This document shows, in pieces, positions 12,293-23,654 of a stretch of 64,000 nucleotides of DNA; positions within the stretch are counted from its first letter, which is position 1; each line of letters opens with the position of its first letter. The position numbers and the translations under genes are program-made. Source of the DNA: an uncultured Candidatus Saccharibacteria bacterium. GTDB lineage: Bacteria; Patescibacteriota; Minisyncoccia; Phycocordibacterales; CAYSCM01. The stretch is from assembly GCA_964429815.1 (NCBI GenBank), contig CAYSCM010000003.1, positions 1 through 64,000 of the forward strand, given 5' to 3'. The notes below the pieces were generated by a model that was not told the DNA's origin, did not search any database, and saw only the letters and a program-made list of their open reading frames with translations.

Positions 12293-12584
12293 GAAGGTCT
12301 AGCCAACCGTTCCACCAGCTTATTCCCACCAGGACTATTGCTAAAGCGATCAGCATCAGTGGAGTAAGCCACAGATTTAGAAAGAAAAGAACGACGCCTA
12401 TTGCCGCCGAAGTCACAGCAAACGCAATAAATGGCGTGTGCTCCCTCGCCTCGACGAACAGGGTTATCGATAGCTGGAAGATGAGATAAATCAAGAAGGT
12501 AAGCACATAGTCTTGCCAGATGACAGCACTCATCGAAACCTCCTTAATCGACCCACCAAATTCGATGCTAGCAATAAGTTGCAT
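12273..12584 (-). CDS. small membrane protein (hypothetical)
   Basis: 103-aa ORF with three hydrophobic helices. True start may be the internal MSAVIW (about 12533). Confidence 0.5.
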   Translation of the reverse strand: MQLIASIEFGGSIKEVSMSAVIWQDYVLTFLIYLIFQLSITLFVEAREHTPFIAFAVTSAAIGVVLFFLNLWLTPLMLIALAIVLVGISWWNGWLDLQNTPRR

Positions 12585-12626
12585 TTTTGCAAGGCTGTGG
12601 CCTTATGCTACGCTTTGAAAATCGTT

Positions 12627-15515
12627 ATGGAAAAGTACGACCCCGCAGGGATAGAAAAAAAATGGCAAGACCGCTGGGACGAGGAGCAACTCTATAAAAC
12701 GCCGGAAAAACCTGGCAAGGATAAATATTACACACTCGTTATGTACCCCTATCCCTCGGGAGACGGGCTCCATGTCGGGCACGTCGAGAGCTACACCGCG
12801 GCGGACATCGTCGCGCGATACACTCGCATGAAGGGAAAAAAAGTGCTCAACCCGATGGGATGGGATGCGTTCGGGCTACCCGCGGAGAACTACGCAATTA
12901 AGACAAAGATCCATCCACGGATAACTACAGAAAAAGCCATCGAGAATTTCCGCCGGCAGATTAAATCCCTCGGCCTCTCCTATGACTGGAGTCGTGAGAT
13001 CGGCACGCACACTCCCGAGTACTACAAGTGGACGCAATGGTTTTTCCTGCTTCTCTATAAAAAAGGTCTTGCGGAGCGCAAATATGCAAAGGTCAACTGG
13101 TGCCCTAAGGACCAGACCGTACTCGCGAATGAGCAGGTCGTTGACGGACACTGCGAGCGCTGCGGGACAGCGGTAATTCAAAGGGATCTTGAGCAATGGT
13201 TTTTCAAAATCACAAAATACGCGGAAGAACTTCTTGCCGATCTGGATCTTATTGATTGGCCGGAGTCCACTAAGGCTGTCCAGCGTCATTGGATAGGTAA
13301 ATCGGAGGGAGCAGAGATTGACTTCGAATTGAAATTTCTCAAAAATCCCGCTGATAATGAACGCCGCGACCCAGAGGGGAAGAAGGCTCACCTTAGCGTT
13401 TTCACCACACGTCCTGATACCCTCTACGGGGCGACCTACCTCGTGCTCTCTCCGGAGCATTTGTGGGTTACGCTCGCGACCGATGATCAGCACGACGCAC
13501 TCCTTAATGCAGATGAGGTCAAAAAATATGTCGAAGAGAGCGCCAAAAAAACCGAGCTTGAGCGTACAGGCCTCAATAAAGATAAAACTGGCGTAAAAAT
13601 CGAGGGAGTTGTTGCCATCAATCCTGCGACGAAAGAAGAAATCCCCATTTTTGTGTCTGATTTCGTACTTGCACAGTACGGCACCGGAGCCCTTATGGCC
13701 GTACCGGCTCACGACGAGCGCGACTTTGAGTTTGCGCAAAAGTTTAATCTGCCGATTCGCTATGTGGTAAAACCGCAGCGCGTCGATTACAAAAATCCGC
13801 ATCGGAGCAGGAAGGAGATGACGCGACGCAACATTATCATTGGCATTGTGCGCGATCCGAAAGCAGAAAAATACCTGGTTCTCAAGTGGCGTAAGCAGCC
13901 GTGGACCACCTTTATCACGGGCGGAGTTGAAGAAGGGGAGGATATTGTAGAAGCGGCGAAGCGCGAAATCACCGAAGAAACCGGGTACAAGAATCTAAAG
14001 CTTGTCCGCGTGCTCGGTGGACCGACCGAGGCGCACTTTTTTGCGGCGCACAAGGATGTCAATCGCATCACGGAAGCGAATCCCATTCTTTTTGAAATTG
14101 AAAATGAGGAACGGATTCCTCTCGGCGCCGAAGATGTCGATCAGTACGATATGGCGTGGCTTACGCTCTCTCAACTTAAAGCTGCAGGGCTTCAGCATGC
14201 CGAGTCGGATATTATTCTTAGTCGCCTTGAGACCGGCATTGATGTATATACGGGTCCAGGTATTCTCATCAACTCTGGCACGTTTAATGGAAAGGAAAAC
14301 GAGTCTTCAAAAAAAGCGATTGTAGCCTCTGTTAAAGGCCATCTAAAAACCACGTATCGCCTTCGTGATTGGCTGGTATCCCGCCAGCGTTATTGGGGTG
14401 CCCCTATCCCCATCATCTACTGCGAGAAATGTGGTATGCAGCCGGTCCCCGAGAAGGATTTGCCGGTGCTCCTCCCCGACGATGTCGATTTCATGCCGAC
14501 CGGCGAGTCACCGCTTGCGCGCTCGAAAAGTTTCCATGACGTGACATGTCCTAAGTGCAAAGGCTCGGCGCGACGTGAATCGGATACCATGGACACGTTT
14601 GTCTGCTCGAGTTGGTATTACTTCCGATTTGCCGATCCGCATAACCATAAAGAGTTCGCTTCGAAAGGTGAAATAAAAAAATGGCTCCCGGTCGATCTCT
14701 ATGTTGGTGGGGCGGAGCACACCGTACTGCATCTGCTCTATTCGCGCTTTTTTACCAAAGCGTTGCGAGACTTTCACTATGTGAATTTTCCCGAGCCGTT
14801 TCTCAAGCTGCGCCATCAGGGCATTATTCTCGCTGAGGATGGACGCAAGATGAGCAAGTCGCTTGGCAACGTGGTGAATCCCGATGACATCGTCGCGCGC
14901 TTTGGTGCCGATTCGATGCGCCTCCATGAGATGTTTTTGGGACCTCTCGAAATAGAAAAGCCCTGGAGCACCAAAAATATTATCGGGGTGCGACGTTTTA
15001 TTGAGCGTGTTTGGAAGCTCCGTGAGAGCGTTACCCCAACAGGAAAGCTCTCTAAGGCTGTCGATGTGGAGCTCAACCGCACCATTAAGAAGGTGGGTGA
15101 AGATATTGAAGGGTTTAAGTTCAATACGGCAGTGAGTCAACTTATGATCCTCACGAATGCACTTGAGACCGAGCGGCAAATACCGGTTTTGGCCTACAAG
15201 AATCTCTTGCGTATTCTTGCGCCTTTTGCTCCCCACGTGACTGAAGAACTCTGGGAGAGTTTCGGCGAAGGAGAGTCGATACACAAAGAAAATTGGCCCC
15301 CCTTCGATAAGGGAAAACTGGTGAGCGACACGCTAACCATCGCAGTGTTGGTATCGGGAAAGGTTCGGGCGACACTAGCTGTCCCGGTTGGAGCAGCTGA
15401 GCCAGAGATCGAGTCCCTAGCGAGAAAGCTACCCGAGCTCGGGAAGTGGATGGGCGGTAGGATACCTAAACGGGTGATCCACGTGCCCGGAAAGCTTGTC
15501 AATTTCGTCCTGTAG
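12627..15515 (+). CDS. leuS: leucyl-tRNA synthetase with a NUDIX hydrolase domain inserted in the CP1/editing region
   Basis: Start at MEKYDPAGIEKKWQ (the track ORF opens at 12513, but homology begins here). HVGH, editing-domain TTRPDTLYGATY and GTGALMAVPAHDERDFEFA, Zn-knuckle CEKCG...CPKCKG, KMSKS. Between ...NLPIRYVVKP and GILINSGTFNG, about 160 extra aa carry a perfect Nudix box GGVEEGEDIVEAAKREITEETGY. Confidence 0.9.
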   Translation: MEKYDPAGIEKKWQDRWDEEQLYKTPEKPGKDKYYTLVMYPYPSGDGLHVGHVESYTAADIVARYTRMKGKKVLNPMGWDAFGLPAENYAIKTKIHPRITTEKAIENFRRQIKSLGLSYDWSREIGTHTPEYYKWTQWFFLLLYKKGLAERKYAKVNWCPKDQTVLANEQVVDGHCERCGTAVIQRDLEQWFFKITKYAEELLADLDLIDWPESTKAVQRHWIGKSEGAEIDFELKFLKNPADNERRDPEGKKAHLSVFTTRPDTLYGATYLVLSPEHLWVTLATDDQHDALLNADEVKKYVEESAKKTELERTGLNKDKTGVKIEGVVAINPATKEEIPIFVSDFVLAQYGTGALMAVPAHDERDFEFAQKFNLPIRYVVKPQRVDYKNPHRSRKEMTRRNIIIGIVRDPKAEKYLVLKWRKQPWTTFITGGVEEGEDIVEAAKREITEETGYKNLKLVRVLGGPTEAHFFAAHKDVNRITEANPILFEIENEERIPLGAEDVDQYDMAWLTLSQLKAAGLQHAESDIILSRLETGIDVYTGPGILINSGTFNGKENESSKKAIVASVKGHLKTTYRLRDWLVSRQRYWGAPIPIIYCEKCGMQPVPEKDLPVLLPDDVDFMPTGESPLARSKSFHDVTCPKCKGSARRESDTMDTFVCSSWYYFRFADPHNHKEFASKGEIKKWLPVDLYVGGAEHTVLHLLYSRFFTKALRDFHYVNFPEPFLKLRHQGIILAEDGRKMSKSLGNVVNPDDIVARFGADSMRLHEMFLGPLEIEKPWSTKNIIGVRRFIERVWKLRESVTPTGKLSKAVDVELNRTIKKVGEDIEGFKFNTAVSQLMILTNALETERQIPVLAYKNLLRILAPFAPHVTEELWESFGEGESIHKENWPPFDKGKLVSDTLTIAVLVSGKVRATLAVPVGAAEPEIESLARKLPELGKWMGGRIPKRVIHVPGKLVNFVL

Positions 15516-15585: not shown

Positions 15586-16611
15586 ATGCAAATGAGCCTC
15601 AAACCGAAAATCGTCGTTAAGCGCCTCCTGGCGGCGCTTCCGGAGCGCGCTCGAGACGTTCTTATCGGCCGCTACGGTCTGGGGCCCGATGCGTCGCGTA
15701 TGACTCTCGAGGCAATAGGGGAAAAATACGACATCACGAGGGAGCGTGTGCGCCAGATAGAAAATTACGCCATCGCGACCATAAAAAAGTCCGAAACGTT
15801 CAAGAAGGAGGGGACTGCATTTTCCGAACTCCATGCAGTGATCGATGGCATGGGAGCCATCGTGCCGGAGGATGAGCTTCTCGAAAATCTCTCGAAAGAC
15901 GAGAGCACTCGCAACCACCTCCTCCTTCTTTTGGTCCTTGGTGACCAATTCAAGCGTCTCAAAGAGGACGAGGAATGCGAAACCTGCTGGGTTATCGACC
16001 CCGAGCTCGAGCGGCGCGTGCGCGGCTCCATGCGAAAAATCTACGAAAAACTCGCCGATGACGAGCTTATTCCCGAAGGGCAGCTCATTGACTCCTTCCT
16101 CAACGAAATGAAGGACCTCAACCAGAAATACAAGGACCAGGAGGTCGTAAAACGTTGGCTTTCGACCAGTAAAAAGATCGGCCGCAACCCCTTGGGCGAA
16201 TGGGGCCGTTCTCACTCGCCTAACGTGAAAGTGAAGGGCATGCGTGACTACGCGTATCTTGCCATCAAGCGCCACGGCTCCCCGATGCACTTTCGGGAAG
16301 TTGCCAAGGCCATCGAGCGGCTTTTTGGAAAGCGCGCGCACGAGGCAACCACTCACAATGAGCTCATCAAAGATCAGCGTTTCGTCCTCGTCGGCAGAGG
16401 TCTTTATGCGCTCAAGGAGTGGGGCTACAGCGCCGGCGTCGTGAAAGATGTCATCCGCGACGTACTCAAGAAATTCGGGCCTCTCTCTCGCGAAGAGGTC
16501 ATCGACAGGGTCAAAAAGGAGCGCTACGTCAAGGACAATACTATCGTCGTCAACCTTCAAGACCCGGCGACCTTCCGAAAGACCAAGGACGGCAAATACG
16601 CACTGGCTTAA
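15586..16611 (+). CDS. sigma-70 region-4 domain / HARE-HTH domain fusion protein (minimal sigma-like factor)
   Basis: N-terminal residues about 10–70 match sigma-70 region 4.1/4.2 (ERARDVLIGRYGL...MTLEAIGEKYDITRERVRQIENYAIATIKK). C-terminal winged-HTH of HARE type (YAYLAIKRHGSPMHFREVAKAI...QRFVLVGRGLYALKEWGY). No region 2. Terminator follows. Confidence 0.75.
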   Translation: MQMSLKPKIVVKRLLAALPERARDVLIGRYGLGPDASRMTLEAIGEKYDITRERVRQIENYAIATIKKSETFKKEGTAFSELHAVIDGMGAIVPEDELLENLSKDESTRNHLLLLLVLGDQFKRLKEDEECETCWVIDPELERRVRGSMRKIYEKLADDELIPEGQLIDSFLNEMKDLNQKYKDQEVVKRWLSTSKKIGRNPLGEWGRSHSPNVKVKGMRDYAYLAIKRHGSPMHFREVAKAIERLFGKRAHEATTHNELIKDQRFVLVGRGLYALKEWGYSAGVVKDVIRDVLKKFGPLSREEVIDRVKKERYVKDNTIVVNLQDPATFRKTKDGKYALA

Positions 16612-20165: not shown

Positions 20166-20615
20166 ATGATCCTCAATCGGTTAGTGCCGATCCTTCTTGC
20201 CGTCGTTCTGATACTGGTGTTTGCATACGTCGCACTCGGTGCGGTCTACGGCGTCAATTGTCCATGGCAGTTTTGTAAATCTCCGGCTCTATCGACTCAG
20301 GCGACTCAGGGTGCCCAGGCGGTGGCGCTTAAGTACTATCATGTAGATGGAAATTACCACGTGCTCGGGAAAGTCGATGCGCTGCCCCCGTGCACGTGGC
20401 TTTACACAAACACCATGGGCGGGCTGACCGACCCTCTGATCATCGCCCTTCGTACGCAAAGTGCCACATCGGGCTGCAAAGAGCACGTGACGGTGCAGAC
20501 CTTTTATGTCGAGGCGGATAGGAGCGGCGAGGTACCCATACGGGTGACGCTCAATGATTCCCCCGTGCCCGCCGCTCTCCAGCAGGTGGAAAGCGAATCG
20601 AGCCTTTCCTTTTAG
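20166..20615 (+). CDS. hypothetical secreted/membrane-anchored protein with 4 Cys
   Basis: N-terminal hydrophobic anchor, 149 aa. No family assigned. Confidence 0.5.
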   Translation: MILNRLVPILLAVVLILVFAYVALGAVYGVNCPWQFCKSPALSTQATQGAQAVALKYYHVDGNYHVLGKVDALPPCTWLYTNTMGGLTDPLIIALRTQSATSGCKEHVTVQTFYVEADRSGEVPIRVTLNDSPVPAALQQVESESSLSF

Positions 20616-20617
20616 TC

Positions 20618-21472
20618 ATGGCGCATGCAAGTATCCTCATCGAGAAGGAGGATGGTTCCCGCGAGCCTTTTGTCGTAGAAAAGTTGCGCACCTCGCTGCA
20701 TAAAGCGGGGGCGAACGGGCGTACGGTCGACAACATCGCCGCTCACATCGAGCGGGAACTTCGCTCCGGAATGCGCAGCGTCGATATCTACAAGCACGCG
20801 TTCGAGATATTACGGAAATCCGAACTCATCGCAGCGAGCCGCTACTCGATGAAGCGTGCCGTCTTCGAGTTGGGGCCGACCGGATTTCCGTTCGAGGATT
20901 TTCTTGCGGAAATATTCCGCGCCAAGGGTTGGGACGTTCATACACGACAACTTATGCGCGGCGCGTGCGTCACGCACGAGGTCGATCTCATCGCTCGGAA
21001 CGGCGATGTAGTGGTCGGCGGCGAGGCGAAATTCCATAACGACCTTGGCATCAAGAGCGATCTTAAAGTAGCGCTCTATGTCGAAAGCCGATTTCAGGAT
21101 CTCAGGGAGAGACCGATCCAACTTTTTGAAGGAAAAGCACTTGCGGAGTATTGGCTCATCACCAACACTAAGTTCACGAGCGAAGCGGTCGAGTACGGCC
21201 GATGCCGGGGTATGACCCTCATCTCATGGAACTATCCCTCTCAGGGAAACCTACAAGCGCTGATCGAAGAAACCGCCATTTTCCCTGTCACCGCGCTCTC
21301 ACAGATCTCGCGCACCGATCGGATGAGATTGGTTAAAGAAGGGCTGGTACTGTGCCGTGACATCTTGCGCCGCCCCGAACGGCTTGCGGAGCTTGGCTAC
21401 AAGAAAGGAAAGGCCGAGGCCATCATTGGGGAGGCGCGCTCATTGTGCGACATCACTCACCAGGTACAATGA
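20618..21472 (+). CDS. ATP-cone domain fused to PD-(D/E)XK (Mrr-like) nuclease domain protein
   Basis: N-terminal ATP-cone-like segment (ILIEKEDGSREPFVVEKLRTSLHKAG, as in NrdR/RNR). Central D...E-x-K core (HEVDLIARNGDVVVGGEAK) typical of restriction-endonuclease-like folds. Confidence 0.6.
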   Translation: MAHASILIEKEDGSREPFVVEKLRTSLHKAGANGRTVDNIAAHIERELRSGMRSVDIYKHAFEILRKSELIAASRYSMKRAVFELGPTGFPFEDFLAEIFRAKGWDVHTRQLMRGACVTHEVDLIARNGDVVVGGEAKFHNDLGIKSDLKVALYVESRFQDLRERPIQLFEGKALAEYWLITNTKFTSEAVEYGRCRGMTLISWNYPSQGNLQALIEETAIFPVTALSQISRTDRMRLVKEGLVLCRDILRRPERLAELGYKKGKAEAIIGEARSLCDITHQVQ

Positions 21473-21475
21473 GCG

Positions 21476-22004
21476 TATGAAGGTGACTCGCGAGGTCTAT
21501 ATCGGCTTTAGCGCAGGTGTGCTGATCGGCGCCCTGGTGATGTACGCAGCTCTTTCTTTTCGGGGCACTCTGACGAACACGTCGTCATCATCAGGCCCTT
21601 CAGCCTCAACCAAAGCGACCGACACGCTGGCGCACAATGCGCTCGATAGTGCTGGTCTTGGCGGGGAGGACAGAGGATATGCGCTCCGCACATTCGATCA
21701 GCCAGCGGGGGAGCATGTTAGCGTCTCCTACCGCCTGCCGGAGGAGGCTTGGATCGCCATACGCGAAGACAACAATGGCGCGTCGGGGCGTATTCTTGGG
21801 GCACGATTGTTTGCGGCAGGAAGCGGGAGCGGAGAGATTCCGTTGCTTCGCCCCACGGTCCCCGGTTCCACTTACCAAGCGCTACTCTATCGAGATAACG
21901 GGAATCGGCAGTTTGAGTATCACGTCGACCTCCTGATCATGAGCGCTGTAAACGCTCCGATAGAAAGCACCTTTCAGGTAAACGGCGGCAGTGCCGGCAG
22001 GTAA
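21476..22004 (+). CDS. hypothetical membrane-anchored protein
   Basis: Start at MKVTREVY just after the previous stop (the track ORF 21357.. is an upstream extension). Single TM and periplasmic domain. Confidence 0.5.
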
Positions 22005-22470
22005 TATGCCGTTGGACCCCAACATTCTCGTATTCGGAAAGCTGCTTCTCGCGACGGTGTTGGGACTTCTCCTTGGCATAGAACGCACCGTCGCCCACAA
22101 GAGCGCGGGTATGCGCACCTACGCGCTCGTGACGCTCGGCTCGGCGCTTTTCGTGTCGATCGGGGAGCTTCTCAACGCGTTATACCTTCAATTGCCCGCC
22201 TTTAATCCCGCATTCATCGCCGGGAACGTTATCGTCGGCATCGGCTTCATCGGCACCGGGCTCGCCATGATGCATCGAGATAGCAGCGTGAATGCCGGCG
22301 TTACGACCATCGCAGGCATCTGGGTTTCGGCAGGCGTTGGCATTGCGGTCGGGCTTGGTTTCTATGAAGTGGCCATCTTTACGACCTTTCTTACGCTTTT
22401 CATTTTCACGGTCATCTGGTTCCTGGAACATCGCTACATCCGCCATGACGGTGACAGCTATCGGCCATAG
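21991..22470 (+). CDS. MgtC/SapB family membrane protein
   Basis: Residues in LGIERTVAHKSAGMRTYALVTLGSALF and the downstream Gly-rich TM segments match the MgtC family. Start may be MPLDPN at 22006. Confidence 0.75.
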   Translation: MPAGNMPLDPNILVFGKLLLATVLGLLLGIERTVAHKSAGMRTYALVTLGSALFVSIGELLNALYLQLPAFNPAFIAGNVIVGIGFIGTGLAMMHRDSSVNAGVTTIAGIWVSAGVGIAVGLGFYEVAIFTTFLTLFIFTVIWFLEHRYIRHDGDSYRP

Positions 22471-22516: not shown

Positions 22517-23341
22517 ATGGGTTTTGGCGGCAGGTACAAGGTGCGCTCCAGAGTGTATGAGCCTGGAGGAAAAACGCCGTACCGGATAAGCCGCTCCAAG
22601 ATCGACCTCTTCCAAGAGTGTCCGCGCTGTTTTTGGCTCGACCAGCGCTTTGGTGTGGGGCGTCCGGATATGCCCGCATTCTCCCTCAACGTCGCAGTCG
22701 ACGAGCTTCTCAAGCGCGAATTTGATGTTCATCGCGTCAATGGTACGCCACATCCCCTCATGAAGGCGTATGGACTCGATGCAGTGCCTTTTTCTCACAC
22801 AAAGCTCGAGCTGTGGCGCGACGCGCTTCGAAACGGCATTGAATATCTCCATCCTGAGACCAATCTTTCTGTGCGTGGCGGCATCGATGACGTGTGGGTA
22901 ACGCCCCAAAACGAGCTCCTCATCGTCGACTACAAAGCAACCAGCAAACGCAAGGAGATCGAGCTCTACGACCACTACAAACGGCAGGTTGAGGTATACC
23001 AGTGGCTCTTCCGCAAGAACGGGTTCAAGGTCTCCGATACTGCCTACTTCGTCTATGTCAACGGTAACGCAGGTGCGCCCGCGTTTGATGGGAAACTCGA
23101 GTTCGATGCAGAGCTTATTGCACATAAGGGCGACGACTCCTGGATCGAGGGGACGCTTCGAAAAATCAAAGATGTCCTAGAGGGCGACGACATTCCTGCG
23201 GTCGGAGAATGTGATTACTGTCCGTATCGGGAGGCGGCCGGAAAGACCCTATATGCTAAAATGAAAAAGCCTAAGAAATTACCAGGATCTAAAATGATAA
23301 AGCATGAAAAGGCCTCTGAGTCGACCGGTAGTCTCTTCTAA
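22517..23341 (+). CDS. PD-(D/E)XK nuclease, Cas4/RecB-nuclease-like with 4-Cys cluster
   Basis: N-terminal CPRCFWLD and C-terminal GECDYCPY cysteines. Catalytic IDDVW...LIVDYKATS (D...D/E-Y-K). Stand-alone; no cas genes nearby. Confidence 0.65.
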   Translation: MGFGGRYKVRSRVYEPGGKTPYRISRSKIDLFQECPRCFWLDQRFGVGRPDMPAFSLNVAVDELLKREFDVHRVNGTPHPLMKAYGLDAVPFSHTKLELWRDALRNGIEYLHPETNLSVRGGIDDVWVTPQNELLIVDYKATSKRKEIELYDHYKRQVEVYQWLFRKNGFKVSDTAYFVYVNGNAGAPAFDGKLEFDAELIAHKGDDSWIEGTLRKIKDVLEGDDIPAVGECDYCPYREAAGKTLYAKMKKPKKLPGSKMIKHEKASESTGSLF

Positions 23342-23654
23342 CAAAACTCTCAACACTGATTTTGCGCGACACGTGTTTGCCATTGTCGCAAAAATCCCAA
23401 AGGGCAGAACCATGACCTACGGACAGGTCGCAGAGGCGGCTGGACGCCCAGGCGCTTCGCGGGCAGTGGGAAACATTCTTTCGACCAATTGGGATCCGGA
23501 GATCCCTTGTCATCGCGTCATTCGCGCCGACGGTAAAATGGGCGGCTACAATCGCGGCACCGAGCGAAAAAAGGAGATACTAACGGATGAACGTCGAGGA
23601 GTGGTGCAAGCCTCCGTAAGGCTCGCTCATCAATCGAAGAACTTTATAAGGTAG
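23304..23654 (+). CDS. methylated-DNA-[protein]-cysteine S-methyltransferase DNA-binding domain protein (MGMT/Ogt-like)
   Basis: YGQVAEAAGRPGASRAVG and the active-site PCHRVI motif. The 5' end overlaps the previous gene by about 38 nt. Confidence 0.8.
   Translation: MKRPLSRPVVSSNKTLNTDFARHVFAIVAKIPKGRTMTYGQVAEAAGRPGASRAVGNILSTNWDPEIPCHRVIRADGKMGGYNRGTERKKEILTDERRGVVQASVRLAHQSKNFIR

What the first reader, a model, noticed from the sequence alone, without database searches (positions are those of the whole stretch)
20618..21472. ATP-cone domain fused to a PD-(D/E)XK nuclease core
The N-terminus resembles the ATP-cone (the allosteric ATP/dATP-sensing module of ribonucleotide reductases and NrdR). 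The centre carries a restriction-endonuclease-like D...(E)xK core (EVDLIARNGDVVVGGEAK). A nuclease gated by nucleotide-pool sensing would be a plausible anti-phage or stress-triggered effector.
Basis: inference. Interest (0 to 1): 0.55.

Follow-up and report, generated by a model that had tools for sequence, protein, structure and literature searches.

The report
ATP-cone-gated nuclease, core Patescibacteria gene
This gene encodes a nuclease fused to the same ATP/dATP-sensing module that controls ribonucleotide reductase; it belongs to a large, catalogued but never-studied family that looks like a housekeeping nucleic-acid recycling enzyme, not a phage-defence weapon.

Summary

The defence interpretation is not supported. 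There is no PADLOC hit. The whole window is housekeeping. The gene sits in a deeply conserved block (MnmA upstream in 73/80 Patescibacteria loci). It is absent from 50,697 phage records and 2.9 million viral contigs.

The same architecture is found in thousands of proteins from Patescibacteria, Archaeoglobi/DPANN-type archaea and Bacteroidota/Chlamydiota. The PDB entry 1Y88 (AF1548) is an N-terminally truncated version that lost the ATP-cone.

In the Bacteroidota-type clade, 36/60 loci place the gene next to a beta-CASP nuclease. Often an archaeal-type nucleotide/nucleoside phosphorylase, a PRPP synthetase and PPK2 follow. Three of those partner types are microoxia-induced in Bradyrhizobium.

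Best reading: an adenine-nucleotide-gated nuclease that feeds nucleic-acid turnover and nucleotide salvage. No biochemistry exists, and the substrate and switch polarity are inferred.

The parts
20618..21472 (+). Whole ORF, 284 aa: ATP-cone + PD-(D/E)XK nuclease + (HhH)2. The start codon lies 2 nt after the stop of the upstream small membrane ORF. The next ORF starts 4 nt after its stop.
   Evidence: the N-terminus aligns with homologue N-termini
20630..20872 (+). ATP-cone domain (aa ~5-85): a beta-hairpin (7-9/15-17) plus helices 20-29, 34-47, 54-68 and 70-83. Predicted nucleotide-contact residues are I8, K10, E16, K22, Y76 and R80.
20870..20896 (+). Invariant linker / start of nuclease helix alpha1, 'LGPTGFPFE' (aa 85-93). 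It carries E93, the first acidic residue of the nuclease site.
   Evidence: G86, P87, G89, F92 and E93 invariant across three clades; this segment is missing from the crystallised AF1548
20879..21262 (+). PD-(D/E)XK (Mrr/AF1548-type) nuclease core, aa ~88-215. It includes the motifs CVxHEVD (117-123), ExKFHN (136-141), ARFxD (157-161) and TNTKF (182-186).
20978..21031 (+). Catalytic segment E121-V-D123 ...
   Evidence: Invariant. It corresponds by alignment and spacing (13 and 2 residues) to the D/E/K predicted for AF1548 in PMC1821046.
21275..21451 (+). C-terminal AF1548-like_C domain (aa ~220-278), a (HhH)2-type helical module. It is presumed to hold the nucleic acid.

Best explanation
The ORF encodes a soluble ~32-kDa enzyme built from three modules: an adenine-nucleotide sensor (ATP-cone), a Mg2+-dependent PD-(D/E)XK endonuclease core, and a sequence-non-specific (HhH)2 nucleic-acid clamp.

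Shown here: all three modules are present. Their functional residues are intact and invariant. The architecture is fixed in thousands of proteins from Patescibacteria, archaea and Bacteroidota/Chlamydiota. In Patescibacteria it is a vertically inherited chromosomal gene in a housekeeping block.

Inferred: as in RNR and NrdR, ATP versus dATP (or ADP) binding to the cone changes the oligomeric or inter-domain state and so switches the nuclease on or off. The cell uses this to couple bulk nucleic-acid breakdown to its nucleotide and energy status. The substrate could be imported or damaged DNA, or RNA. The products would be finished by other nucleases and channelled into nucleotide salvage and ribose-phosphate catabolism.

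My guess for polarity is the RNR one: ATP permissive, dATP inhibitory. That would make the nuclease stop when deoxynucleotides are plentiful. This matters most in Patescibacteria, which live by salvage.
For: Architecture and residues.

ATP-cone contacts conserved: EcoNrdR V51/K53/E59/K65/F127 map to I8/K10/E16/K22/Y76. The archaeal members keep the canonical KRDG motif.

Fused architecture is the rule. The 150 best cluster representatives are mostly 270-300 aa (range 221-403) and nearly all match the query from about residue 5 to 250-280, down to 33% identity. There are 418 representatives below 1e-30. Nearly all of the 120 listed archaeal hits carry PF03477. There are 7,522 hits for the Bacteroidota-type query.

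Housekeeping, vertically inherited context: MnmA upstream in 73/80 loci, MltG in 62/80, AlaRS downstream in 48/80. At least 598 species-level genomes carry it. GC content is like the neighbours.

Metabolic operons in the sister clade: nuclease -> beta-CASP MBL -> ARCH_P_rylase-type phosphorylase -> PRPP synthetase (-> PPK2) in Pontibacter, Criblamydia and Cyclobacterium. MBL is present in 36/60 metagenomic loci, starting within ~130 bp in 26 of them. The phosphorylase is in 15/40 and PRS in 13/40. The MBL/PRS/phosphorylase trio is microoxia-induced in Bradyrhizobium (PMC6515984).

Lineage overlap: the family occurs in lineage types (CPR bacteria, DPANN-type archaea) for which an archaeal-type AMP/nucleoside pathway has been reported, and that paper names no upstream nuclease (PMC5113843). 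Whether the particular genomes carrying this gene also encode that pathway was not tested.

Precedent: structural neighbours include ligand-gated PD-(D/E)XK nucleases (Can2, Card1, Cdn1, NucC, Cap4), showing that sensor-plus-nuclease gating works with this fold.
Against: - No member of the family has been assayed. Nucleotide binding, nuclease activity, substrate (DNA or RNA) and switch polarity are all inferred.
- The salvage operon is seen only in the Bacteroidota/Chlamydiota clade (~35-38% identical to this protein). None of the partner genes lies within 6 kb in 85 Patescibacteria loci, in 4 archaeal loci, or anywhere in this 64-kb window.
- In Patescibacteria the conserved neighbours are uninformative housekeeping genes. 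The nearest functionally suggestive ones are DNA-repair genes (PDDEXK_1 37/80, MGMT-like 29/80), which favours the repair rival.
- The residue after the key Lys is not Arg in the Patescibacteria and Bacteroidota proteins (K-E/A-D/S-G instead of KRDG), so affinity or specificity may differ.
- The sequence-level match to NrdR is weak (E=0.15), so residue mapping in the last helix is tentative.
Confidence: 0.45

Rival explanations
1. DNA-repair or recombination endonuclease. On this view it is a structure- or lesion-specific nuclease with a nuclease + (HhH)2 layout like XPF/Hef/Mus81 and a core similar to NucS. Its incision activity would be licensed by the ATP/dATP status, so that cuts are made only when repair synthesis can follow.
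Against: The repair genes are part of a long syntenic housekeeping block that also holds aaRS, MltG and MnmA, so adjacency may carry no functional meaning. They are absent next to the archaeal and Bacteroidota homologues, whose partners are metabolic. An Hjc gene is present separately in Geoglobus 2 kb away. No ATP-cone is known in any repair nuclease.
Confidence: 0.25
2. Anti-phage / abortive-infection effector. The cone would sense the collapse or distortion of the ATP/dNTP pool caused by infection and unleash the nuclease on phage or host nucleic acid.
For: A sensor domain fused to an Mrr-like nuclease is the standard layout of Can2/Card1/NucC/Cap4 effectors, which are structural neighbours. 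Nucleotide-pool manipulation is a known theme in defence (own knowledge). The two plasmid-borne copies show the gene can travel.
Against: No PADLOC hit. No defence genes in the window. Syntenic core-gene behaviour in 73/80 Patescibacteria loci. No copies in phages or viral contigs. Operon partners are metabolic. Very high sequence conservation (mean column identity 52-55%) is unlike the rapid turnover typical of defence genes.
Confidence: 0.08
3. Ordinary type II/IV (Mrr-like) restriction endonuclease, as several databases name it.
Against: No methyltransferase or specificity partner nearby in any locus examined. No Mrr-type N-terminal winged-helix or SRA DNA-recognition domain. Conserved, syntenic and single-copy. 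The only DNA-binding module is a non-specific (HhH)2.
Confidence: 0.05
4. Catalytically silent regulator. On this view it is an NrdR-like nucleotide-sensing DNA-binding protein that uses the nuclease fold and the HhH module only to bind DNA.
For: The cone is most similar to that of NrdR. JGI names one homologue 'NrdR family'.
Against: All metal-binding and catalytic residues are strictly invariant over three distant clades, which is not expected for a binding-only scaffold. There is no Zn-ribbon. The TIGR00244 score is 16.4 bits against a cutoff of 124.65.
Confidence: 0.05

Closest known systems
AF1548 of Archaeoglobus fulgidus (PDB 1Y88; Pfam Mrr_cat + AF1548-like_C), a structural-genomics 'hypothetical protein'
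   Different: The crystallised chain starts at ...VARLLEEHG. A 99%-identical full-length Archaeoglobus ORF has 90 more N-terminal codons encoding an ATP-cone, the GPxGxxFE linker and the first catalytic Glu. The solved structure therefore misses the regulatory half. No function was ever assigned beyond a predicted 'restriction endonuclease' (PMC1821046).
NrdR and the ATP-cones of ribonucleotide reductases (NrdA/NrdB/NrdD/NrdJ)
   Different: The output domain is a nuclease instead of a reductase or a Zn-ribbon DNA binder. The Arg after the key Lys is missing in the Patescibacteria and Bacteroidota proteins. Nucleotide binding is untested.
Ligand-gated PD-(D/E)XK nucleases of defence systems (Can2, Card1/VC1899, Cdn1, NucC, Cap4)
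   Different: The sensor here is an ATP-cone that reads primary metabolites, not a CARF/SAVED domain reading a dedicated second messenger. There is no cyclase partner, no defence-island context and no PADLOC match. It behaves as a core gene rather than an accessory one.
XPF/Hef/Mus81 structure-specific endonucleases
   Same: Domain order: PD-(D/E)XK nuclease followed by (HhH)2.
MBL-fold hydrolase / PRPP synthetase / thymidine-phosphorylase-family cluster (bll3115-bll3117) of Bradyrhizobium diazoefficiens
   Same: The same three gene types follow the ATP-cone nuclease in the Pontibacter, Criblamydia and Cyclobacterium operons. The Bradyrhizobium trio is induced in microoxia.
   Different: Whether the Bradyrhizobium cluster has an ATP-cone nuclease next to it was not checked. 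The cluster itself is biochemically uncharacterised. It is not linked to the gene in Patescibacteria.

Membership tests
ATP-cone (PF03477) | Profile match above the curated threshold | tested here: met
   30.4 bits against a gathering cutoff of 25.8, E=6e-7, aa 7-58. Most homologues carry a precomputed PF03477 hit.
ATP-cone (PF03477) | Fold: N-terminal beta-hairpin capping a four-helix bundle of ~85-100 aa | tested here: met
ATP-cone (PF03477) | Conserved nucleotide-contact residues (Lys in the hairpin, Glu, Lys in helix 1) | tested here: met
   K10, E16 and K22 align to EcoNrdR K53, E59 and K65. K10 and K22 are invariant and E16 is >=90% conserved. The Arg of 'KRDG' is present only in the archaeal clade.
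ATP-cone (PF03477) | Binds ATP/dATP and transmits an allosteric signal | not testable with these tools
   Needs ITC and activity assays.
PD-(D/E)XK nuclease, Mrr_cat/AF1548 type | Profile or sequence match | tested here: met
   Pfam Mrr_cat is marginal (20.3 vs 21 bits), but 1Y88 gives E=3.9e-28 / 1.9e-44, and many homologues pass Mrr_cat.
PD-(D/E)XK nuclease, Mrr_cat/AF1548 type | alpha-beta-beta-beta-alpha-beta core with E...D...(D/E)xK metal site | tested here: met
PD-(D/E)XK nuclease, Mrr_cat/AF1548 type | Metal-dependent phosphodiester cleavage | not testable with these tools
   No member has been assayed. No paper was found.
AF1548-like_C / (HhH)2 | Profile match and two helix-hairpin-helix units | tested here: met
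Known anti-phage defence systems (PADLOC) | Match to a defence-protein model | tested here: not met
   0 families at E<=1.
Known anti-phage defence systems (PADLOC) | Location in a variable defence island, patchy distribution, or association with mobile elements | tested here: not met
   Housekeeping window. Synteny in 73/80 loci. 0 phage records, 0 IMG/VR contigs, 2 plasmids.
NrdR (TIGR00244) | N-terminal Zn-ribbon plus ATP-cone, ~150 aa | tested here: not met
   16.4 bits against a cutoff of 124.65. Only the cone part aligns. There is no Zn-ribbon.
Mrr-type / type IV restriction enzyme | N-terminal DNA-recognition (winged-helix/SRA) domain, R-M or modification-dependent context | tested here: not met
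   The N-terminus is an ATP-cone. No methyltransferase neighbour was seen in any locus inspected.

The most novel reading that the evidence does not exclude
This is the first ATP-cone-controlled nuclease. On this reading it is a nucleotide-pool-gated switch for nucleic-acid recycling. It uses the same ATP-on/dATP-off logic as ribonucleotide reductase to decide when DNA or RNA is converted into nucleotides. It would be the missing entry step of the AMP-phosphorylase / pentose-bisphosphate type salvage route in Patescibacteria, DPANN-type archaea and Archaeoglobi. In Bacteroidota and Chlamydiota it would be part of a hypoxia/energy-limitation module.
Probability: 0.3. Interest if true: 0.75.

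Novelty: new variant of a known kind. Interest (0 to 1): 0.55.

Why it matters
The ATP-cone is the textbook allosteric switch of ribonucleotide reductase. Its only other studied host is the repressor NrdR.

A third, very large class of ATP-cone proteins exists. It numbers thousands of sequences, and at least 598 species-level genomes carry it in Patescibacteria-type lineages alone. In this class the output is a nuclease, and it has never been examined experimentally. The one solved structure (1Y88) was made from a truncated gene model that removed the sensor.

If the cone really gates the nuclease, it would show how cells that depend on salvage (CPR bacteria, DPANN archaea) couple nucleic-acid breakdown to their nucleotide pools. 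It would also explain a recurrent, microoxia-induced operon in Bacteroidota, Chlamydiota and rhizobia. Finally, it would provide a compact metabolite-gated nuclease for protein engineering. The hypothesis can be tested directly with one recombinant protein and four nucleotides.

Tried and rejected
1. Defence hypothesis. PADLOC gave no hit. The neighbourhood and the whole window are housekeeping. Phage, plasmid and IMG/VR searches gave 0, 2 and 0 hits. Rejected as the main reading.

2. Fe-S or Zn cluster from conserved cysteines (C117, C196, C246, C277). C246 and C277 are not conserved in archaeal or some bacterial members, and coordinates of the model are not exposed. Dropped.

3. Literature searches for an ATP-cone/nuclease description found nothing. 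The founding ATP-cone paper (Aravind, Wolf and Koonin 2000) is not in the library. It may mention such fusions; I could not check.

4. Tn-seq data for a Patescibacterium (PMC10633639). The only 'ATP-cone' hypothetical protein there, SEML1_0737, is a 95-aa stand-alone cone and is non-essential. It is not this family.

5. AFDB50 fold search for taxonomic range was unavailable.

6. Looked for partner genes (beta-CASP MBL, phosphorylase, PRS, PPK2, phosphoketolase) in the window, in 85 Patescibacteria loci and in 4 archaeal loci. None was found.

7. Looked for paralogues of any of the three domains in the window. None was found.

8. The GOS paper's residue numbers (D38/E51/K53) do not match the PDB chain indices (51/64/66), and the 13-residue offset does not fit the 22-residue tag either. 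I rely on the identical spacing and on the alignment, not on the numbering.

Full report
OBSERVATION

The window holds an ATG-to-TGA ORF of 284 aa at exactly 20618-21472 on the + strand. Its start codon lies 2 nt after the stop of a small upstream ORF, and the next ORF begins 4 nt after its stop.

Pfam gives three hits:
- ATP-cone PF03477, aa 7-58, E=6e-7, 30.4 bits against a gathering score of 25.8.
- AF1548-like_C PF22357, aa 222-276, 26.7 bits against 23.9.
- Mrr_cat PF04471, aa 89-203, 20.3 bits against 21, so just under the cutoff.

A search of PDB sequences finds 1Y88, 'hypothetical protein AF1548', with E=3.9e-28 over residues 95-276. A profile of 30 homologues raises this to 1.9e-44.

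STRUCTURE

A third domain, a non-specific nucleic-acid-binding module, was missed.

FUNCTIONAL RESIDUES

I aligned 28 sequences from three distant clades, down to 32% identity: Patescibacteria, archaea, and Bacteroidota/Chlamydiota. The strictly invariant positions are K10, G13, K22, Y76, G86, P87, G89, F92, E93, G104, G115, C117, E121, D123, E136, K138, H140, Y154, R158, D161, N183, T184, C196, W204, P207, P223 and T225.

E93/D123/E136/K138 form a complete PD-(D/E)XK metal site. D123/E136/K138 correspond, by alignment and by spacing, to the three catalytic residues predicted for AF1548 in the GOS paper (PMC1821046).

For the cone, the profile alignment to E. coli NrdR places NrdR V51, K53, E59 and K65 on I8, K10, E16 and K22. 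It places F127, the residue that excludes ATP from the outer site, on invariant Y76. Published structures and mutants show V51, K53, E59 and K65 contact the nucleotides or are needed for binding (PMC12176259). The archaeal members have the canonical KRDG motif. The Patescibacteria and Bacteroidota proteins have K-x-D/S-G without the Arg. The sequence-level match to NrdR is weak (E=0.15), so the mapping in the last helix is tentative.

THE FAMILY

The protein is not an oddity.
- A word-indexed search found 4,970 homologues. The best 120 are all 270-307 aa and 45-71% identical. Where named, they come from Patescibacteria and are called 'ATP cone domain-containing protein', 'restriction endonuclease' or 'ATPase'.
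- An exhaustive HMMER search of 1.84 billion cluster representatives found 1,112 representatives at E<=1e-3 and 418 at E<=1e-30. The 150 best are mostly 270-300 aa (range 221-403), and nearly all match the query from about residue 5 to 250-280. The fused architecture is therefore the norm.
Of the 80 best, 78 are labelled as Patescibacteria-type lineages or generically as 'bacterium'. Named groups include Kaiserbacteria, Nomurabacteria, Taylorbacteria, Zambryskibacteria, Lloydbacteria, Yonathbacteria, Paceibacteria/Paceibacterota and Minisyncoccia, plus many MAGs labelled 'uncultured Candidatus Saccharibacteria'. The two exceptions (L059, L064) are short contigs labelled Bacteroidales and Ferruginibacter.

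AF1548 IS TRUNCATED

Searching with the part of AF1548 visible in the PDB alignment returned 978 archaeal homologues. Nearly all are 260-280 aa and carry an ATP-cone. They include a 99%-identical 265-aa Archaeoglobus protein, and proteins of Geoglobus ('Restriction endonuclease/ATP cone domain'), Ferroglobus, Hadesarchaea, Aenigmarchaeota and Nanoarchaeota.

In the Archaeoglobus contig the reading frame runs 90 codons upstream of the '...VARLLEEHG' start of the crystallised chain. That upstream stretch encodes the cone, the GPxGxxFE linker and the first catalytic Glu. The only solved structure of the family thus lacks its regulatory half. This probably helped keep it 'hypothetical'.

CONTEXT IN PATESCIBACTERIA

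Around the gene the window encodes, in order:
- LeuRS
- a sigma-70-region-4/HARE-HTH protein
- a DUF8128-type protein (so annotated on the homologous loci; no Pfam hit on the window ORF itself)
- MltG/YceG
- MnmA
- a small membrane ORF
- this gene
- a small membrane ORF
- MgtC
- a Cas4/RecB-like PDDEXK_1 nuclease
- an MGMT-like protein
- VanY
- UDG
- two M16 peptidases
- AlaRS

The rest of the window is also housekeeping: ribosomal protein S4, RpoA, GrpE/DnaK/DnaJ, four more aaRS, ScpA, cell-wall genes, DnaB and RecR.

Across 80 genomes, MnmA is immediately upstream in 73, MltG in 62, DUF8128 in 59 and AlaRS downstream in 48, always co-directional. PDDEXK_1 is present in 37, MgtC in 34 and MGMT-like in 29. 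GC content matches the surroundings.

There is no PADLOC hit and no paralogue in the window. No relative was found in 50,697 phage records or in 2.9 million IMG/VR contigs. This is a vertically inherited core gene, not a defence-island gene.

CONTEXT ELSEWHERE

The only two plasmid hits are in Pontibacter (Bacteroidota) and Criblamydia (Chlamydiota). Both head the same operon: ATP-cone nuclease, MBL-fold hydrolase, 'thymidine phosphorylase family' protein, ribose-phosphate pyrophosphokinase. In Criblamydia the operon is flanked by phosphoketolase, glucan phosphorylase and acetate kinase.

A search with the Pontibacter protein found 7,522 homologues with the same architecture, many from Bacteroidota. 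Four chromosomal contexts were inspected:
- Cyclobacterium repeats the operon and adds PPK2 and a P-type ATPase.
- A Saprospiraceae genome has the MBL gene overlapping the nuclease stop.
- A Flavobacterium has a P-type ATPase instead.
- Sporocytophaga has nothing informative.

NCBIfam assigns the partners as follows:
- The MBL protein is a beta-CASP nuclease core (aCPSF1-like / Cas14-like).
- The phosphorylase belongs to the archaeal-type subfamily TIGR02645/PRK04350, above cutoff, and is close to AMP phosphorylase.
- The kinase belongs to the ribose-phosphate diphosphokinase subfamily PRK07199.
- The last partner is a PPK2.

I then examined 80 metagenomic loci of this clade. Among 60 loci with at least 1.5 kb downstream:
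- 36 have the beta-CASP gene, co-directional.
- 26 of those start within about 130 bp.
- 18 have a P-type ATPase.

Among 40 loci with at least 5 kb downstream, 15 have the phosphorylase and 13 the PRPP synthetase.

In Bradyrhizobium diazoefficiens, the cluster bll3115 (MBL-fold hydrolase), bll3116 (ribose-phosphate pyrophosphokinase) and bll3117 (thymidine phosphorylase family) is listed among genes induced under microoxia at both protein and transcript level (PMC6515984).

None of these partners lies near the gene in the 85 Patescibacteria loci, in the 4 archaeal loci or in the window. In three Archaeoglobi the gene directly follows, or overlaps, a membrane channel or transporter gene: an amino-acid permease with a Usp domain, CorA, and MscS. 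I cannot explain this.

MECHANISM

What is shown:
- a sensor of the ATP-cone type with its contact residues
- an intact nuclease site
- a non-specific nucleic-acid-binding module
- a fixed architecture over a huge phylogenetic span
- core-gene behaviour in Patescibacteria
- operonic linkage to nucleic-acid and nucleotide catabolism or salvage enzymes in another clade

What is inferred:
- Adenine nucleotides bind the cone.
- As in RNR and NrdR, binding changes the oligomeric or inter-domain state and so gates cleavage.
- The physiological role is to couple nucleic-acid breakdown to the nucleotide and energy state.

The family occurs in lineage types (CPR bacteria, DPANN-type archaea) for which an archaeal-type AMP/nucleoside pathway feeding central metabolism has been reported. 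The paper describing that pathway in CPR names no nuclease upstream of it (PMC5113843). Whether the genomes that carry this gene also encode that pathway was not tested.

I commit to this salvage/turnover reading with confidence 0.45. RNR-like polarity (ATP permissive, dATP inhibitory) and DNA as the preferred substrate (because of the (HhH)2 module) are low-confidence guesses. The beta-CASP partner with an RNA-metabolising signature keeps RNA open as a substrate.

The main rival (0.25) is a repair or recombination endonuclease licensed by nucleotide status. It is suggested by the repair genes in the Patescibacteria block and by the nuclease + (HhH)2 layout. Defence effector (0.08), plain restriction enzyme (0.05) and silent regulator (0.05) are unlikely, for the reasons given in their entries.

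COMPARISON AND NOVELTY

The gene is a clear member of the AF1548 family and carries a bona fide ATP-cone. Both facts are already visible in automatic annotations, for example 'ATP cone domain/Restriction endonuclease' from JGI.

I found no paper that describes or tests the combination. The founding ATP-cone paper is not in the library and may mention it.

Functionally it would be a new variant of two known kinds: ATP-cone allostery, known for RNR and NrdR, and ligand-gated PD-(D/E)XK nucleases, known with CARF/SAVED sensors in defence. It fails the membership tests for defence systems, NrdR and Mrr-type restriction enzymes.

VERDICT

- Observation: confirmed.
- Interpretation: partly supported. 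The domains and the nucleotide-gated-nuclease idea hold; the anti-phage effector idea does not.
- Interest: 0.55. This is a widespread, well-defined, experimentally untouched ATP-cone output class with a directly testable mechanism. However, it is already catalogued in databases and has no functional data.

Noticed in passing
L089:6001-6798 (Archaeoglobus contig) and PDB 1Y88: The crystallised AF1548 begins at ...VARLLEEHG. The 99%-identical full-length ORF has 90 more N-terminal codons (ATP-cone, linker, first catalytic Glu). The PDB entry and the original gene model therefore appear N-terminally truncated.
   Followed up: yes
window 12513-15515 (+): The leucyl-tRNA synthetase (1000 aa) carries a NUDIX domain (aa 441-562, E=3e-15) inserted right after the editing domain. 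The same insertion is seen in L001. In L004 a Ser_hydrolase domain is present as well.
   Followed up: partly
L086, L087, L089 (Archaeoglobi); window 21991-22470; L094, L093, L091: The gene family is recurrently adjacent to cation or channel genes. In three Archaeoglobi, CorA, MscS or an amino-acid permease with Usp lies directly upstream or overlapping. MgtC is 1-2 genes downstream in 34/80 Patescibacteria loci. P-type cation ATPases occur in 18/60 Bacteroidota-type loci. This is unexplained; it could hint at a Mg2+/ATP homeostasis link or at a dormancy regulon.
   Followed up: partly
L090:2829-6597, L091:8834-12602, L093:7875-13086: There is a conserved module: beta-CASP MBL nuclease, archaeal-type (ARCH_P_rylase) phosphorylase, PRPP synthetase, sometimes PPK2. 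The first three gene types form a microoxia-induced cluster (bll3115-3117) in Bradyrhizobium. The pathway itself seems uncharacterised.
   Followed up: partly
window 22517-23341 (+) and 23304-23654 (+): A Cas4/RecB-like PDDEXK_1 nuclease has Cys motifs at both ends (CPRC...C..C, suggestive of an Fe-S cluster). It overlaps by 38 nt with a short MGMT-type DNA_binding_1 protein. UDG follows on the opposite strand. Together these form a small DNA-repair cluster conserved in many Patescibacteria loci.
   Followed up: no
window 15586-16611 (+): A 341-aa protein combines sigma-70 region 4 with a HARE-HTH domain. It is conserved at this position in 46/80 Patescibacteria loci. A similar protein is annotated 'RpoS' (SEML1_0294) in Southlakia epibionticum.
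   Followed up: no
Southlakia epibionticum SEML1_0737 (PMC10633639 supplement): Saccharibacteria encode a 95-aa stand-alone ATP-cone protein, non-essential in Tn-seq. This is another ATP-cone outside RNR and NrdR with unknown function.
   Followed up: partly
L059 and L064: Two short contigs labelled Bacteroidales and Ferruginibacter MAGs carry a Patescibacteria-type copy (40-41% identity to the query). They are possibly mis-binned contigs.
   Followed up: no
window 20166-20615 (+) and 21477-22004 (+): The two small ORFs flanking the gene have N-terminal hydrophobic segments and no Pfam match. The upstream one has no detectable homologue in the 80 related loci. The downstream one is found in 16/80, and in L004 the equivalent gene is DUF7282.
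   Followed up: no
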